Origin: a phage | Direction: 5' to 3' (one strand) | Sequence record: PZ715802.1 | DNA length: 49,124 bases | Shown: positions 13,960-18,278 of the stretch, piece by piece | Numbering within the stretch: the first letter of the stretch is position 1 | Layout of the letters: every line of letters starts with the position of its first letter | Made by a program: the position numbers and the translations under genes | The notes under the pieces: model-generated | What the model was told of the DNA's origin: nothing | What the model saw: only the letters and a program-made list of their open reading frames with translations | The model's database searches: none

Positions 13960-14622
13960 ATGCACTTACCTAACGGAGCACAGATTTTTATTGAGAATAC
14001 TCGCGCACAGGCAGTAAGCGCAACCAACGTTAGCAACGCTGAAAAACCGGAGTTCACTGTTGCAAGTGGCGGAACTGACTTTAAAAAGGGTGATTACATT
14101 ATCGTTACCGCCTCAAGTTGGGGTAAATTGCTTGATCGCGTTCTGCGTGTGACGGCGGCTGAAGAAACTAAGGTTACTGTTGAAGGTATCGACACAACCG
14201 ATACTAACGTTTTCCCTGCTGGCGCTGTAACTGCGAGCTTTGCGAAAATCAACGGTTGGACAGAGATCCCATGCGTACAGGACTTGGGGCAGGACGGAGG
14301 CGAGCAACAGTATTACAATTACCAGTGCTTGAGCGATGACCAGGAGCAGCAGTTACCAACCTATAAAAGCGCGGTATCACTGACTTACACATTTGCGCAT
14401 GAATACGATAACCCGATTTATCCGCTATTGCGTAAGGCTGACGAATCCGGCGACGTTAAAGCATTGCGCATGTATGTACCAAAAGCGAAAGAAATGCGCC
14501 TTTGGGCTGGTGTGCTTTCTTTCAACGAGATCCCACAAACGGCGGTAAACGAAATGGAAACCGTTTCTTTGTCGGTATCCCTGAAAGGTCGCTTTACTTT
14601 CCTCCCTGCTAACCAGGATTAA
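13960..14622 (+). CDS. major tail protein (by position)
   Basis: ORF track; AAGGGGG RBS; followed by terminator and then the frameshifting chaperone gene. Confidence 0.55.
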   Translation: MHLPNGAQIFIENTRAQAVSATNVSNAEKPEFTVASGGTDFKKGDYIIVTASSWGKLLDRVLRVTAAEETKVTVEGIDTTDTNVFPAGAVTASFAKINGWTEIPCVQDLGQDGGEQQYYNYQCLSDDQEQQLPTYKSAVSLTYTFAHEYDNPIYPLLRKADESGDVKALRMYVPKAKEMRLWAGVLSFNEIPQTAVNEMETVSLSVSLKGRFTFLPANQD

Positions 14623-14628
14623 TATTAA

Positions 14629-14651
14629 GGGGCGCATTGCGTCCCTTTTTT
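14629..14651 (+). terminator. intrinsic terminator
   Basis: stem ggggcgc/gcgtccc (one G-U) then TTTTTT. Confidence 0.6.
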
Positions 14652-14699
14652 ATTTGATGTAATATCACCTCAATATTTAACCACTCAGGAGAAATGACA

Positions 14700-15014
14700 A
14701 TGGCTAAAATGAAATTGACTCTTGCCCCGCTTCCAGATTTCAAACTTCCAGTTAAATTTGTATTGCCGGATGGTAACGAGCAAAAAATTGTGTTTACCGT
14801 TAAGCATAAAAAGGCCAGCGAGATTCAAGAGCTTTACCAGAAAGAAGGTATTAAAGATCCTGAATTCATCATGAATGTTGCCGTGGGTTGGGATCTGGAG
14901 GAAGAATTCAACGAAGAAAACGCGCAACTGTTAGTTGATTATTATCCTGGCGCGGCGCTGGCTCTTATGGGATCTTATTTAAGTGCGCTGGCAGGGCAAC
15001 GCGTAAAAAACTAA
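14700..15014 (+). CDS. tail assembly chaperone, G-like short product
   Basis: track ORF 14694-15014; AGGAG RBS favours ATG 14700; lies between major tail protein and tape measure protein. Confidence 0.6.
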   Translation: MAKMKLTLAPLPDFKLPVKFVLPDGNEQKIVFTVKHKKASEIQELYQKEGIKDPEFIMNVAVGWDLEEEFNEENAQLLVDYYPGAALALMGSYLSALAGQRVKN

Positions 15015-15331
15015 AACGGGCGGTTTATCTGTATTATCAGAAACCGCCGACAGATGCAGAATTGCAAGCCGTAGGATTAACCCGCGCAGACTATGAAGGA
15101 GAAGATCCGCCAGAGGTCATATTTGATGAAAGTATGATGCAATCATGGGATATATTTTGCGCGATGGGTACACAGTGGCGTAGTGCTGGCGCTGGTGCTT
15201 ACGGTTTTGATTATAATGTTTTGCCTATGTTATTCAGAATCTATAAAATAGACGATGAAGAAATGGCCTTAAATGACTTGCGCATCATGGAACAAAAAGC
15301 ACTGGAAATGATGCAAGCAAATAACAAATAA
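14700..15331 (+). CDS. tail assembly chaperone, GT-like product via -1 frameshift at 15005-15011
   Basis: slippery heptamer A_AAA_AAC just before the stop; -1 frame is open from 15011 through track ORF 15062-15331. Confidence 0.55.
15005..15048 (+). other. programmed -1 ribosomal frameshift signal
   Basis: heptamer A_AAA_AAC 15005-15011, 7-nt spacer, perfect 8-bp stem ggcggttt/aaaccgcc at 15019-15048. Confidence 0.6.
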
Positions 15332-15353
15332 AGCGCCTACGGGCGCTTTTTTT
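15332..15353 (+). terminator. intrinsic terminator
   Basis: stem agcgcc/ggcgct, loop tacg, then TTTTTTT. Confidence 0.6.
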
Positions 15354-15368
15354 ATGAGGGTAAAATAT

Positions 15369-18278
15369 ATGGCTGAACAATTTGCAGGTTTAACACTTGG
15401 CGTTAACGTCGAGCAGTTAAACAAAGCTGTTAAGTCGTTACAGGACTTTAAAAAAGCCAACGACGAAGCAAAGAAAGGCGTTGAGAGCTTTGTTAACGAG
15501 GAAGAAGTTGCAAAGCAAAAGGCTAAACAGTTAGCCGATGAATTAGCGAAACAGAGCCGTGAATTTAAGAGAATTCAGGATACAGTTGATCCGACAGCGG
15601 CAAAAATGCGCAAGCTGTCACAGGCAGCAAGTGATCTTGATAAGCTATGGCAAAAAGGGATTGTACCTGATGAAACATTCTTCCAATTAGGGAGCATGTT
15701 GGAAACTCAGATCAGTAAATTGGAGCGCAACAAAAAGGCGCTTACGGAAGAAGGCCGCGCAGCGTTGGAAGAATCACGCACCAAAGAGAAAGCAGCGGCA
15801 GCAGGAAAGAGCTTCCTTGCGGATCTAGAATCACAAGCGGCTGCTCTTGGAAAAACCAAATCTGAATTACTGGAAATGAAAGCCGCGCAACTTGGCGTAA
15901 GTGCTCAGGCCGCGCCATTCATTGCACAGCTTAAAGCGCAAGAGCGCCAGATGAAATTAACCGGAATTAGCGCGGGGCAATATAACCAGGCAATGCGACA
16001 ACTTCCGGCTCAGATCACTGACGTTGTAACGTCGCTGGCTTCCGGCATGCCTGTTTGGTTGGTTGCAATCCAGCAGGGTGGGCAGATTAAAGATTCTTTC
16101 GGCGGCGTTGGTAATACGTTTAAAGTGCTGTTGTCGTTTCTTAATCCGGTAAACGTTGGCCTTGCCGCATTAGCCGTTTCAATGGGTGCTCTTGTTAAGG
16201 CTGGTTATGATGCGTATAAGTCGCAACGTGACTTGCAAGAGGCGTTAGTGATGACTGGTGGATATGCTGGCACAAACGGCGCACAGTTTGACAAGATGGC
16301 GCAGGATATTAATAACAGCACTGATGCGACCATTGGCAGCATTCGCGGCATTGCAACAGAGCTTGCAAAATCTGGAAAATACACCATTGATCAGATTAAA
16401 GCCATTACGAAAACTACCGCTCAGTGGTCAACTGTAACGGGTGAATCAAGCGATAAGATTACTGGTTACTTTGATAAGATTGCTGGCGATCCGGTTAAAG
16501 GTCTTGCAGAGCTAAACGAGCAATTCAACTTTTTAAGCGAAGGGCAGTTAACTTATATTGCAGACCTGGAGAAAACGAAAGGAAAAACGGAAGCAGTGAC
16601 GGCGGCGACAAAGTTATTTGCTGATGTTATGGATCAGAGATTAGCTAAACTGGCAGACTCCGCAACGCCATTAGAAAAGATGTGGACGAACATTAAAAAA
16701 TGGGCGTCAGATGCTTGGGGATGGGTTGGAGATCACACGCTGGCGGCGCTTAACCTGATTATCGACGTTGTAGCCGGAACGGTTGAGCAGGTCAGATACT
16801 TGCTTAATCAGGGTGATATTCTCATTGGTGAATTTATTGTGTCGGCAACTAAGACGATGCAAAAAATCCCAGGTCTTGATAATGTTGGCGATTCTGTAAT
16901 TTCGCAACAACAGAAGATCATTAATAACGCCAAAGAGAACAACAAGGAGCTATTAAAATCAATTGCAGAACGTAACGAGCGAGTCAAAAAAGGCGAGCAG
17001 GGTTACATTGACATGATGAAAAATCGTGCGGCGGTTGAACAGCAATATGCGACAAAAACAAAAGAGAATATCAGGAAGGAAGCCGAGGAATTAGCCAAAC
17101 GCGATAAAAAGCAAAAGGCTGAAAAAGTTAAGGTATCGGCTGGCGATAAGCTGGAAGAACAATATCAGCGTGATATCCTGGCGTTAGAAACTCAATTAAG
17201 AGTATTGAAAGAGCACAAGACGATCACAGATACCATAAGCCAGCAACGTAAATCTTTATGGGCTGAACAAGCTAAAATTCAGATTTTGCAAGAAGCCTCA
17301 ACAAAACGGCAACTTACTGATGAAGAAAAAAGCATTTTAGCCAACAAAGATAAGATCCTGGCGATGGCTGAACAAAAAGCTATTTTAGGAGATCAGATTG
17401 TTGCACAAACGCGCCTTAATCAGTTGCAAGATAGCTCAATCAAGTTTATCCAGCAGCAGAAAGCAGCAACAGAAGCACTAGCCAAAACCAGAGGGTTAAG
17501 TGAACGTGAAGCAGCAAGAGCGGCGGAACGTGCAAAGGTTGAGGCTGATTATCTTGCCAAAGGAGGTAAGGAAGGAGATCCGCAACTCACCGCCATGATG
17601 GATGAATTAGACAACCGCTATAAAGAGGAAGATGCTAAACGTGCTGATTGGTTATCTGGTGCAAAACATGCCTTTGCGGAGTACGGCGAAGAAGCAATGA
17701 ACATGTATGATAATATCGGCAACATTGCGAGCCAGGCGTTAAACGGCCTATCGCAACAAATGGCTGATTTCTTGACTACTGGACAAGCAAACTTCAAAGA
17801 CTTTGCAAAATCGATCATTAGCCTTATTGTTCAGATGATCACAAAGATGGTTATCTTCAATAGCATTTCCGGCATGATGGGCGGCTCAACCTGGACGCTT
17901 GGAAGCCTTTTAAGCGGTGCTGGTTTTGCTAGCGGCGGTTATACTGGCGACGGTGGCAAATATGATCCGGCTGGCGTTGTTCATAAGGGTGAGTTTGTTT
18001 TCACCAAAGAGGCAACGCAAAGAATCGGAGCTAAAAACCTGTATCGCATGATGCGAGGTTATGCAAACGGCGGTCAAGTAGGAAGCGTGACAACTGGCGG
18101 TGCTGGCATCAATCGCGGTGCATCGCAATTTGCATTTGGTGATATCAACGTTAACATTGACAACGGTCAAGATCCAAAAGGGATGGAAACTGGTATCAAG
18201 ATGATTTTCACTGAAATGATTCAACGGTCATGCTCGCAAGGTGGCGAGGTTTATAATTTTGTTCATGGGAGGGCTTAA
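15369..18278 (+). CDS. tail tape measure protein
   Basis: internal ATG of track ORF 15354-18278 with GAGGG RBS; about 970 aa, Ala/Gln/Lys-rich helical sequence; position after chaperone. Confidence 0.8.
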   Translation: MAEQFAGLTLGVNVEQLNKAVKSLQDFKKANDEAKKGVESFVNEEEVAKQKAKQLADELAKQSREFKRIQDTVDPTAAKMRKLSQAASDLDKLWQKGIVPDETFFQLGSMLETQISKLERNKKALTEEGRAALEESRTKEKAAAAGKSFLADLESQAAALGKTKSELLEMKAAQLGVSAQAAPFIAQLKAQERQMKLTGISAGQYNQAMRQLPAQITDVVTSLASGMPVWLVAIQQGGQIKDSFGGVGNTFKVLLSFLNPVNVGLAALAVSMGALVKAGYDAYKSQRDLQEALVMTGGYAGTNGAQFDKMAQDINNSTDATIGSIRGIATELAKSGKYTIDQIKAITKTTAQWSTVTGESSDKITGYFDKIAGDPVKGLAELNEQFNFLSEGQLTYIADLEKTKGKTEAVTAATKLFADVMDQRLAKLADSATPLEKMWTNIKKWASDAWGWVGDHTLAALNLIIDVVAGTVEQVRYLLNQGDILIGEFIVSATKTMQKIPGLDNVGDSVISQQQKIINNAKENNKELLKSIAERNERVKKGEQGYIDMMKNRAAVEQQYATKTKENIRKEAEELAKRDKKQKAEKVKVSAGDKLEEQYQRDILALETQLRVLKEHKTITDTISQQRKSLWAEQAKIQILQEASTKRQLTDEEKSILANKDKILAMAEQKAILGDQIVAQTRLNQLQDSSIKFIQQQKAATEALAKTRGLSEREAARAAERAKVEADYLAKGGKEGDPQLTAMMDELDNRYKEEDAKRADWLSGAKHAFAEYGEEAMNMYDNIGNIASQALNGLSQQMADFLTTGQANFKDFAKSIISLIVQMITKMVIFNSISGMMGGSTWTLGSLLSGAGFASGGYTGDGGKYDPAGVVHKGEFVFTKEATQRIGAKNLYRMMRGYANGGQVGSVTTGGAGINRGASQFAFGDINVNIDNGQDPKGMETGIKMIFTEMIQRSCSQGGEVYNFVHGRA

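What the first reader, a model, noticed from the sequence alone, without database searches (positions are those of the whole stretch)
15005..15048. Programmed -1 frameshift in the tail assembly chaperone gene with a downstream stimulatory hairpin
The chaperone ORF ends with slippery heptamer A_AAA_AAC (15005-15011) directly before its stop codon. The -1 frame is open from there to 15331, and a perfect 8-bp stem (15019-15026 with 15041-15048) starts 7 nt after the heptamer. This is the conserved G/GT-type arrangement of long-tailed phages and explains the apparent gap between track ORFs 14694-15014 and 15062-15331.
Basis: partly seen in the sequence, partly recalled or inferred. Interest (0 to 1): 0.5.

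Follow-up and report, generated by a model that had tools for sequence, protein, structure and literature searches.

The report
Known tail-chaperone frameshift of T1-like phage
This is the ordinary, already annotated -1 ribosomal frameshift that lets a T1/TLS-like phage make a short and a long version of its tail assembly chaperone from one gene pair, here with a real but unproven helper hairpin.

Summary
A_AAA_AAC (15005-15011) is in register with the chaperone ORF and is followed at once by TAA. The -1 frame is open to 15331. A hairpin starts 7 nt downstream; the perfect 8-bp stem folds best as 7 bp, a 2-nt bulge and 4 bp, at -16.1 kcal/mol.

The ORFs are Phage_TAC_4 and DUF1799, lying between the tail tube and tape measure genes. 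Across 39 distinct relatives, the most variable codon position switches from the 0 frame to the -1 frame exactly at the heptamer. The first 42 conserved codons of the second ORF have no conserved start codon.

It is not new. The window is 100% identical here to Citrobacter phage Stevie (Tlsvirus, Drexlerviridae). Stevie, TLS, U136B, Sazh and Pocis76 already carry a two-piece joined CDS, and the deposited 210-aa Stevie product equals a fusion made inside this A-run. The Stevie genome paper mentions the conserved frameshift.

The stimulatory role of the hairpin is only plausible. It is among the 1.65% most stable local folds and is conserved in T1- and TLS-like lineages. It shows no convincing covariation and is absent from several lineages that keep the heptamer and the adjacent stop.

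Interest is low.

The parts
14687..14691 (+). Shine-Dalgarno AGGAG for the chaperone gene
   Evidence: Read. It lies 8 nt before ATG 14700 and only 2 nt before ATG 14694. The identical Stevie record annotates it as the ribosome binding site.
14700..15014 (+). G-type tail assembly (tape measure) chaperone ORF, 104 aa plus stop. The in-frame ATG at 14694 would give 106 aa.
   Evidence: Pfam Phage_TAC_4 PF08748, E = 2.3e-37. The start MAK[MF]K is conserved in relatives. Annotated in Stevie, U136B and Sazh.
15005..15011 (+). Slippery heptamer A_AAA_AAC in the 0-frame register
   Evidence: It is the only in-register heptamer in the overlap. It is present in all 48 anchorable loci of the first set, which span five Drexlerviridae groups and G identity down to 38%; one further locus has A5. 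It is also present in nearly all of 79 further loci.
15012..15014 (+). 0-frame stop TAA directly after the heptamer, a possible 'shifty stop' component
   Evidence: The stop is always adjacent to AAAAAAC in relatives, and is TGA in two loci.
15019..15048 (+). RNA hairpin 7 nt after the heptamer: 7 bp, a 2-nt bulge, 4 bp and a 6-nt loop.
   Evidence: -16.1 kcal/mol, z = -3.78; lowest 1.65% of local folds. Conserved in T1-like and TLS-like loci. No Rfam family reaches its gathering score anywhere in 14600-15400.
15011..15331 (+). T-type extension read in the -1 frame (106 codons plus stop), made only as the C-terminal part of the GT fusion
   Evidence: Pfam DUF1799 PF08809, E = 1.2e-12. Matches positions 109-213 of phrog_17368. 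Third-position variability is in the -1 frame from 15011 onward. No conserved start codon before 15134.
13960..14622 (+). Upstream neighbour: major tail (tube) protein
   Evidence: Pfam Phage_tail_3, E = 5e-67.
15354..18278 (+). Downstream neighbour: tape measure protein. Stevie annotates the start at 15369.
   Evidence: Pfam TMP_2, E = 2.2e-64, and Tape_meas_lam_C, E = 1.5e-21. Stevie annotation.
14627..14656 (+). Terminator-like hairpin plus T-run between the tube gene and the chaperone gene
   Evidence: Annotated as a terminator in Stevie and Sazh.
15330..15356 (+). Terminator-like hairpin plus T-run between the T extension and the tape measure gene
   Evidence: Annotated as a terminator in Stevie and Sazh.

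Best explanation
This is a programmed -1 ribosomal frameshift in the tail assembly (tape measure) chaperone gene of a TLS/T1-like siphophage. Most ribosomes translate 14700-15011 and stop at TAA 15012, making the 104-aa chaperone (G-type, Phage_TAC_4). A small fraction slip back one base on A_AAA_AAC and continue in the -1 frame from 15011 to 15331. That makes a 210-aa fusion (GT-type) whose C-terminal DUF1799 part is not made on its own.

By analogy with lambda gpG/gpGT, the G parts of both proteins would coat the tape measure protein, and the T part would recruit the tube protein. This function is inferred, not shown here.

The heptamer is a weak shifter in E. coli. The adjacent stop codon and the hairpin 7 nt downstream probably raise or tune the rate by pausing the ribosome over the slip site. 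That step is also inferred.
For: Shown here.
1. Heptamer, register, stop, open -1 frame and hairpin are all as described.
2. The gene order matches lambda V-G-T-H-M-L-K: tail terminator, tube, G, T, tape measure, then M-, L- and K-like genes.
3. G is Phage_TAC_4 (E = 2e-37) and T is DUF1799 (E = 1e-12). The 213-position profile phrog_17368 is matched at positions 1-107 by G and at 109-213 by T, so that family consists of full-length fusions.
4. Over 39 distinct relatives, the most variable codon position is the 0-frame third base upstream of 15005 (1.47 against 0.65 and 0.52 bits). Downstream of 15011 it is the -1-frame third base (0.98 against 0.41 and 0.32 bits). The switch falls at the heptamer.
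5. The peptide LKRAVYL.YQKPPTD.EL..GL, encoded from 15011 on, is conserved. TTG 15062 is absent in many relatives, and the first conserved ATG is at 15134.
6. AAAAAAC plus an adjacent stop is present in T1, TLS, Rtp-like, Eclunavirus and Webervirus relatives.
7. phiEB49-like phages replace the heptamer with GCA_AAG_GTC_TAA, which carries the A_AAG shifty tetramer, and keep the T part in the -1 frame.
8. Identical or near-identical records (Stevie, TLS tfmS, U136B, Sazh, Pocis76) annotate a two-piece joined CDS. The 210-aa fusion ...QRVKK-LKRAVY... equals the deposited AIX12284.1 exactly.
9. [quoted passage not shown]

From the literature. A_AAA_AAC is the proven -1 frameshift motif of IS1 in E. 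coli (PMC4066793). The role of lambda G/GT and their 30:1 ratio are reviewed in PMC5009743.
Against: No protein-level evidence for this phage or its close relatives was found in the searchable literature.

In E. coli reporter constructs AAAAAAC shifts at only 0.16% without a stimulator, 0.19% with the IS911 stimulators and 0.74% with the IS3 pseudoknot (supplement of PMC4066793). The achieved GT level is therefore unknown and could be well below lambda's roughly 3%.

Evolutionary support for the hairpin is weak. 79% of cells are paired, but only 3 pairs change on both sides, and a register slid by one column scores as well on covariation. Synonymous-site constraint gives p = 0.15 over all sequences and p = 0.045 only in a subset chosen for having the hairpin. 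Pairwise codon-identity tests are mostly not significant. The hairpin is absent in lineages L022-24/L074, L062, L094, L110-L127, Eclunavirus and Webervirus F20.
Confidence: 0.93

Rival explanations
1. Transcriptional slippage. RNA polymerase adds one A in the A6 run (15005-15010), giving a minority mRNA in which G and T are in frame. The product would be ...VKK-LKR..., which is the deposited sequence.
For: There is a run of six A at the junction. The deposited fusion has K rather than N at the junction, which is what an A7 transcript would encode. That K probably reflects only where the annotators placed the join.
Against: The same A6C motif in IS1 is listed as a proven case of -1 frameshifting. 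phiEB49-like relatives have only AAAGG at this position and still need the -1 frame, which fits ribosomal A_AAG slippage but not polymerase slippage. The C at heptamer position 7 and the adjacent stop are invariant, and these are features of a translational signal.
Confidence: 0.03
2. There is no recoding. The second ORF is translated on its own from TTG 15062 or ATG 15134, or by termination-reinitiation after TAA 15012. The heptamer and hairpin are coincidental.
For: the ORF listing gives a stand-alone ORF at 15062..15331. Many records annotate stand-alone DUF1799 ORFs of 48 to 104 aa (T1; Ec_L1).
Against: The annotated stand-alone starts disagree from record to record. TTG 15062 is CTT or TTA in many relatives, and no Shine-Dalgarno sequence precedes it. 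Codons 15011-15061 evolve as coding in the -1 frame and encode a conserved peptide, yet contain no ATG, GTG or TTG back to the -1-frame stop at 14936. The heptamer and adjacent stop persist at synonymous sites that vary freely just upstream.
Confidence: 0.03
3. The frameshift is real, but the hairpin is not a stimulator. It would be a by-product of codon choice for the conserved peptide R-A-V ... K-P-P, and the heptamer plus the adjacent stop would be the whole signal.
For: There is no convincing covariation. Synonymous constraint is not significant. Several lineages keep the peptide, heptamer and stop but break the stem through synonymous changes, for example CGC GCC GTC ... AAG CCG CCT in L022. 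The IS1 A_AAA_AAC site has no established stimulator.
Against: The stem begins at the canonical 5-8-nt spacing. The fold is in the top 1.65% of local stabilities and z is -3 to -4.9 in every T1-like and TLS-like sequence. Rtp-like phages lack this hairpin. They instead have a different extended stem of about 75 nt (-31 to -35 kcal/mol, z -3.6 to -5.0) whose 5' arm starts at the same place, as expected if structure at that spot is selected.
Confidence: 0.4

Closest known systems
Annotated frameshift of the Tlsvirus tape measure chaperones (Citrobacter phage Stevie CPT_Stevie15/16; phage TLS tfmA/tfmS; U136B_045/046; Sazh_046/047)
   Same: The DNA is identical (Stevie, 100% over 14600-15400) or at least 97.6% identical. 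The same two ORFs are annotated, with a two-piece joined CDS. The deposited 210-aa product AIX12284.1 equals a fusion made within this A-run.
   Different: Nothing of substance differs. The deposited product has Lys at the junction (...VKK-LKR...), whereas classical tandem slippage after decoding AAC predicts Asn (...VKN-LKR...). The records do not annotate the hairpin.
Phage lambda gpG/gpGT -1 frameshift (Levin, Hendrix and Casjens 1993; Xu, Hendrix and Duda 2004, 2013, 2014, as reviewed in PMC5009743)
   Same: Two overlapping ORFs lie between the major tail and tape measure genes. The -1 shift occurs near the end of the first ORF. The long product carries an extra C-terminal domain, and the downstream tail genes are lambda-like (M, L, K).
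   Different: The slip site is A_AAA_AAC followed directly by a stop, where lambda has G_GGA_AAG. The protein families differ (Phage_TAC_4 and DUF1799). A stable hairpin sits 7 nt downstream.
IS1 insA-insB' -1 frameshift at A_AAA_AAC in E. coli
   Same: It uses the same heptamer in the same host group and operates at low efficiency. It is listed as a proven case (PMC4066793).
   Different: It makes a transposase, not a tail chaperone. It has no established stimulator, and no hairpin is reported.
E. coli dnaX and IS911/IS3-type -1 frameshift signals (heptamer plus downstream stem-loop or pseudoknot)
   Same: The architecture is a slippery A-rich heptamer with a downstream structure after a short spacer.
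   Different: Those use the highly shifty A_AAA_AAG (4-39% with stimulators, against 0.2-0.7% for AAAAAAC). dnaX and IS911 also have an upstream Shine-Dalgarno-like stimulator. No conserved one is seen here: GCAGGG in this window is GCCGGA in T1.

Membership tests
G/GT-type tail assembly chaperone frameshift of long-tailed phages | Two ORFs located between the major tail (tube) gene and the tape measure gene | tested here: met
   Phage_tail_3 at 13960-14622, then the two ORFs, then TMP_2/Tape_meas_lam_C at 15354-18278.
G/GT-type tail assembly chaperone frameshift of long-tailed phages | The second ORF overlaps the end of the first in another frame and lacks its own conserved start | tested here: met
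   The -1 frame is open from 14939 to 15331. There is no ATG, GTG or TTG before 15062. TTG 15062 is not conserved, and the first conserved ATG is at 15134.
G/GT-type tail assembly chaperone frameshift of long-tailed phages | A slippery sequence in the overlap, in register, conserved among relatives | tested here: met
   A_AAA_AAC is the only in-register heptamer in the overlap. It is present in all 48 anchorable loci of the first set, which gave 39 distinct sequences, and in nearly all of 79 further loci. phiEB49-like phages replace it with the A_AAG motif.
G/GT-type tail assembly chaperone frameshift of long-tailed phages | The coding signal continues across the junction in the shifted frame | tested here: met
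   Codon-position variability switches frame at the heptamer. The profile phrog_17368 is collinear with the fusion.
G/GT-type tail assembly chaperone frameshift of long-tailed phages | Both the short and the long product are made, at a fixed low ratio | not testable with these tools
   This needs a western blot, mass spectrometry or a reporter assay. No such data for T1/TLS-like phages were found.
G/GT-type tail assembly chaperone frameshift of long-tailed phages | Both products are required for tail assembly and are absent from virions | not testable with these tools
   This needs genetics and virion proteomics.
Pfam Phage_TAC_4 (PF08748) | Score above the curated gathering cut-off over the full-length profile | tested here: met
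   128.4 bits against a cut-off of 21.1, covering profile positions 1-124 of 124.
Pfam DUF1799 (PF08809) | Score above the curated gathering cut-off | tested here: met
   48.3 bits against a cut-off of 26, covering profile positions 2-80 of 80.
Heptamer-plus-downstream-structure -1 PRF signal | A stable structure starting 5-9 nt after the heptamer | tested here: met
   7-nt spacer, -16.1 kcal/mol, z = -3.78. The fold is in the top 1.65% of local folds.
Heptamer-plus-downstream-structure -1 PRF signal | The structure is maintained by selection (covariation or synonymous constraint) and raises frameshifting | tested here: inconclusive
   Covariation is weak. Synonymous constraint gives p = 0.15, or 0.045 in a circularly chosen subset, and pairwise tests are mostly not significant. 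The hairpin is absent in several lineages and is replaced by a different stem in Rtp-like phages. A functional effect cannot be tested here.

The most novel reading that the evidence does not exclude
A_AAA_AAC is a very weak shifter in enterobacteria, at 0.16-0.74% in reporters. Drexlerviridae may therefore set the G:GT ratio through accessory elements that turn over between lineages. Those seen here are the always-adjacent stop codon; the 30-nt hairpin in T1- and TLS-like phages; a stem of about 75 nt in Rtp-like phages; no evident structure in Webervirus and Eclunavirus; and a switch to the A_AAG motif in phiEB49-like phages. This would be a natural series for studying how frameshift efficiency is tuned. 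Neither the hairpin nor the adjacent stop appears as a feature in the five records inspected here, and the Stevie genome paper, the only genome paper found here to mention this frameshift, does not describe them.
Probability: 0.35. Interest if true: 0.25.

Novelty: already known. Interest (0 to 1): 0.1.

Why it matters
It matters mainly for annotation. The gap between the two ORFs is not a missing gene, and the second ORF should be annotated as the frameshift extension of the first. Many T1-like records, including T1 itself, still annotate two stand-alone hypothetical proteins. RefSeq and PHROGs label all three products 'tail length tape measure protein'. Scientifically it adds nothing to the established G/GT paradigm. 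The modest exception is the set of accessory signals, which vary between lineages and could be tested in a frameshift reporter.

Tried and rejected
- **Stop-codon readthrough.** The 0 frame beyond TAA closes after 18 codons, and the T part is in the -1 frame. Rejected.
- **Other slip sites.** No other in-register heptamer and no other homopolymer run of 4 or more bases exists in the overlap 14939-15014.
- **Upstream Shine-Dalgarno-like stimulator, as in dnaX.** GCAGGG at 14991-14996 is not conserved; T1 has GCCGGA. Rejected.
- **Rfam.** No family reaches its gathering score in 14600-15400. The only hits are sub-threshold matches to sRNA terminators at 15330-15356.
- **Solved structures.** No sequence relative of the 210-aa fusion in the PDB at E up to 1.
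- **Literature.** Searches for experimental evidence in T1-like phages returned only genome announcements.
- **Salmonella phage 36.** I first thought its A5 variant (L025) fused G and T. A one-base deletion in fact shifts reading to the +1 frame, so it is most likely a homopolymer sequencing error.
- **Covariation and synonymous-constraint tests of the hairpin.** Inconclusive.
- **Not attempted.** Structure prediction and large protein-database searches, because the Pfam, PHROG and GenBank evidence was already decisive.

Full report
**1. The observation**

The ORF 14694..15014 ends ...CGC GTA AAA AAC TAA. AAAAAAC at 15005-15011 is therefore in the X_XXY_YYZ register A_AAA_AAC, and the stop (15012-15014) follows at once.

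The -1 frame is open from 14939 (upstream stop TGA at 14936-14938) to the stop at 15329-15331. It is in phase with the listed ORF 15062..15331.

GGCGGTTT (15019-15026) is the exact reverse complement of AAACCGCC (15041-15048), and the spacer is 7 nt. RNAfold prefers 7 bp, a 2-nt bulge, 4 bp and a 6-nt loop. This gives -16.1 kcal/mol and z = -3.78, and none of 200 shuffles folds as well.

How this compares with chance:
- The heptamer as a bare word is not enriched in the window (21 copies, 27 expected).
- It is the only in-register slippery heptamer in the 24-codon stretch where a -1 shift can join the two ORFs, and 0.08 are expected there.
- Only 1.65% of 49-nt windows on this strand fold as stably as the hairpin.

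**2. What it is**

The window is a TLS/T1-like siphophage. Positions 14600-15400 are 100% identical to Citrobacter phage Stevie (Tlsvirus, Drexlerviridae) and 99.1% identical to phage TLS.

The first ORF is Phage_TAC_4 (E = 2.3e-37) and the second-frame segment is DUF1799 (E = 1.2e-12). They lie between the tube protein (Phage_tail_3) and the tape measure protein (TMP_2, Tape_meas_lam_C). Upstream is a tail terminator; downstream are lambda M-, L- and K-like genes. This is the lambda V-G-T-H-M-L-K order.

The 213-position profile phrog_17368 is matched at positions 1-107 by the first ORF and at 109-213 by the second. Members of that family are therefore full-length fusions.

**3. Comparative evidence for the shift**

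I collected 39 and then 79 related loci from IMG/VR, plus T1, Pocis76, an Rtp-like phage, Ec_L1 and F20.

- *Conserved signal.* AAAAAAC followed directly by a stop is present in all 48 loci of the first set that could be anchored, which gave 39 distinct sequences. These include relatives with G identity down to 38%. It is also present in nearly all of the second set, where two loci have TGA in place of TAA.
- *Frame switch.* Column entropy over the 39 distinct sequences shows the most variable codon position moving at the heptamer. Upstream it is the 0-frame third base (1.47 against 0.65 and 0.52 bits). Downstream it is the -1-frame third base (0.98 against 0.41 and 0.32 bits).
- *No independent start.* The peptide encoded from 15011 (LKRAVYL.YQKPPTD.EL..GL) is conserved. 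TTG 15062 is absent in many relatives, and the first conserved ATG in that frame is at 15134. Forty-two conserved codons therefore have no start of their own. Stand-alone annotations of the second ORF range from 48 to 104 aa, which reflects the lack of a real start.
- *A natural control.* phiEB49-like phages have GCA_AAG_GTC_TAA at this position, while the 94%-identical Sd1 keeps AAAAAAC. The heptamer has been replaced by A_AAG, which the review cited above treats as an established -1 shift site in E. coli (PMC5009743). The T part remains in the -1 frame. This argues for ribosomal slippage, not polymerase slippage.

**4. The start codon**

AGGAG at 14687-14691 lies 8 nt before ATG 14700 and only 2 nt before ATG 14694. 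Relatives begin MAK[MF]K, and only the TLS group has the extra Met-Thr. The likely products are G = 104 aa and GT = 210 aa.

**5. Already known**

Stevie, TLS (tfmS), U136B, Sazh and Pocis76 all annotate a two-piece joined CDS here. U136B and Sazh note it as the 'frameshift product'.

An exact look-up shows that the 210-aa fusion MAKM...QRVKK-LKRAVY... is the deposited Stevie/LL5 protein AIX12284.1. The version with Asn at the junction, which classical tandem slippage would give, is not deposited.

[quoted passage not shown] The general phenomenon is reviewed in PMC5009743.

**6. Mechanism**

A_AAA_AAC is the proven IS1 frameshift motif in E. coli (PMC4066793), but it is weak. Reporter values from the supplement of that paper:

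| Heptamer | No stimulator | IS911 stimulators | IS3 pseudoknot |
|---|---|---|---|
| AAAAAAC | 0.163% | 0.189% | 0.739% |
| AAAAAAG | 0.29% | 4.3% | 39% |

A low GT:G ratio is therefore expected. Lambda's is about 1:30. Accessory elements may matter here.

The element that is always present is the stop codon directly after the heptamer. It could act as a 'shifty stop' by slowing A-site occupancy. That idea rests on Weiss et al. 1987, which I recall from memory; I saw only the citation, not the text.

Both routes give the same protein apart from the junction residue. The routes are tandem P/A-site slippage, or slippage of the P-site tRNA with the stop in the A site.

**7. The hairpin**

It is real, stable and correctly spaced. 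It is conserved with z of about -3 to -4.9 in all T1-like and TLS-like sequences.

Tests for selection on it are inconclusive:
- 79% of cells are paired, but only three pairs change on both sides, and a register slid by one column scores as well on covariation.
- Synonymous entropy in the hairpin codons is lower (0.42 against 0.68). The test gives p = 0.045 only in a subset chosen for having the hairpin, and p = 0.15 overall.
- Pairwise codon-identity tests against T1-like and other relatives are mostly not significant.

Several lineages keep the peptide, heptamer and stop but break the stem through synonymous changes: L022-24/L074, L062, L094, L110-L127, Eclunavirus Ec_L1 and Webervirus F20.

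Rtp-like phages lack this hairpin. They instead have a different extended stem of about 75 nt (-31 to -35 kcal/mol, z -3.6 to -5.0) whose 5' arm begins 5-6 nt after the heptamer. That is what one would expect if structure at that spot is selected.

My estimate is about 0.6 that the hairpin stimulates frameshifting in this phage. No Rfam family reaches its gathering score in this region.

**8. Rivals**

- Readthrough is excluded, because the 0 frame closes after 18 codons.
- Independent initiation or reinitiation conflicts with the conserved stretch that has no start codon.
- Transcriptional slippage on A6 is unlikely given the short run and the phiEB49 variant, but sequence alone cannot exclude it.

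**9. Verdict**

The feature is already annotated and published for identical sequence, so novelty is 'already known' and interest is low. The remaining open points are the junction residue, the actual frameshift rate, and whether the hairpin and the adjacent stop act as stimulators.

Noticed in passing
window 14627-14656 and 15330-15356: Terminator-like GC hairpins with T-runs bracket the chaperone gene pair. One lies between the tube gene and G, the other between T and the tape measure gene. The second also scores on the minus strand. Stevie and Sazh annotate both as terminators. They may step down transcription from the abundant tube protein to the chaperones and tape measure.
   Followed up: partly
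L082, L086, L088, L090, L091 (phiEB49-like), about position 1000-1015 of each locus; compare L078 (Shigella phage Sd1): These phages have GCA_AAG_GTC_TAA where all the others have GCA_AAA_AAC_TAA. The heptamer is replaced by the A_AAG shifty tetramer, with the stop one codon further on, and the T part is still in the -1 frame. Sd1 is 94% identical and keeps AAAAAAC.
   Followed up: partly
L079-L081, L083-L085, L087, L089; also L026 and L046 (Rtp-like, Braunvirinae), 5-80 nt after the heptamer: In place of the 30-nt hairpin, these loci have an extended stem of about 75 nt starting 5-6 nt after the heptamer (-31 to -35 kcal/mol, z -3.6 to -5.0). It uses the same 5' arm position but a distant 3' partner.
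   Followed up: partly
L066 and L069, the stop codon after the heptamer: Two metagenomic relatives have TGA in place of TAA directly after AAAAAAC (CTA to CTG, synonymous in the -1 frame). The position of the stop is conserved; its identity is not.
   Followed up: no
L025 / L077 (Salmonella phage 36, KR296690): The A-run is A5 instead of A6, which would throw the chaperone ORF into the +1 frame. This is most likely a homopolymer sequencing error in a 41-kb record whose annotation is otherwise poor.
   Followed up: partly
window 14694-14702: Two in-frame ATGs. The Shine-Dalgarno spacing and conservation in relatives favour 14700 (MAKMKL...) over 14694 (MTMAKMKL...), which TLS and the ORF listing use.
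   Followed up: yes
GenBank/RefSeq records hit; PHROG families: RefSeq and PHROGs (phrog_17368, 569, 680) label the chaperone, its extension and the fusion all as 'tail length tape measure protein', which is a propagated misnomer. T1 (MK213796) and Ec_L1 still annotate two separate hypothetical proteins with no join.
   Followed up: no
records MG065671, MG065669 ('Campylobacter phage A120/A123') and OR786094 ('Streptococcus phage MBBL140'): Records named for Campylobacter and Streptococcus hosts carry sequence 87-99.6% identical to this enterobacterial T1/TLS-like phage. The host labels look doubtful, suggesting contamination or mislabelling.
   Followed up: no
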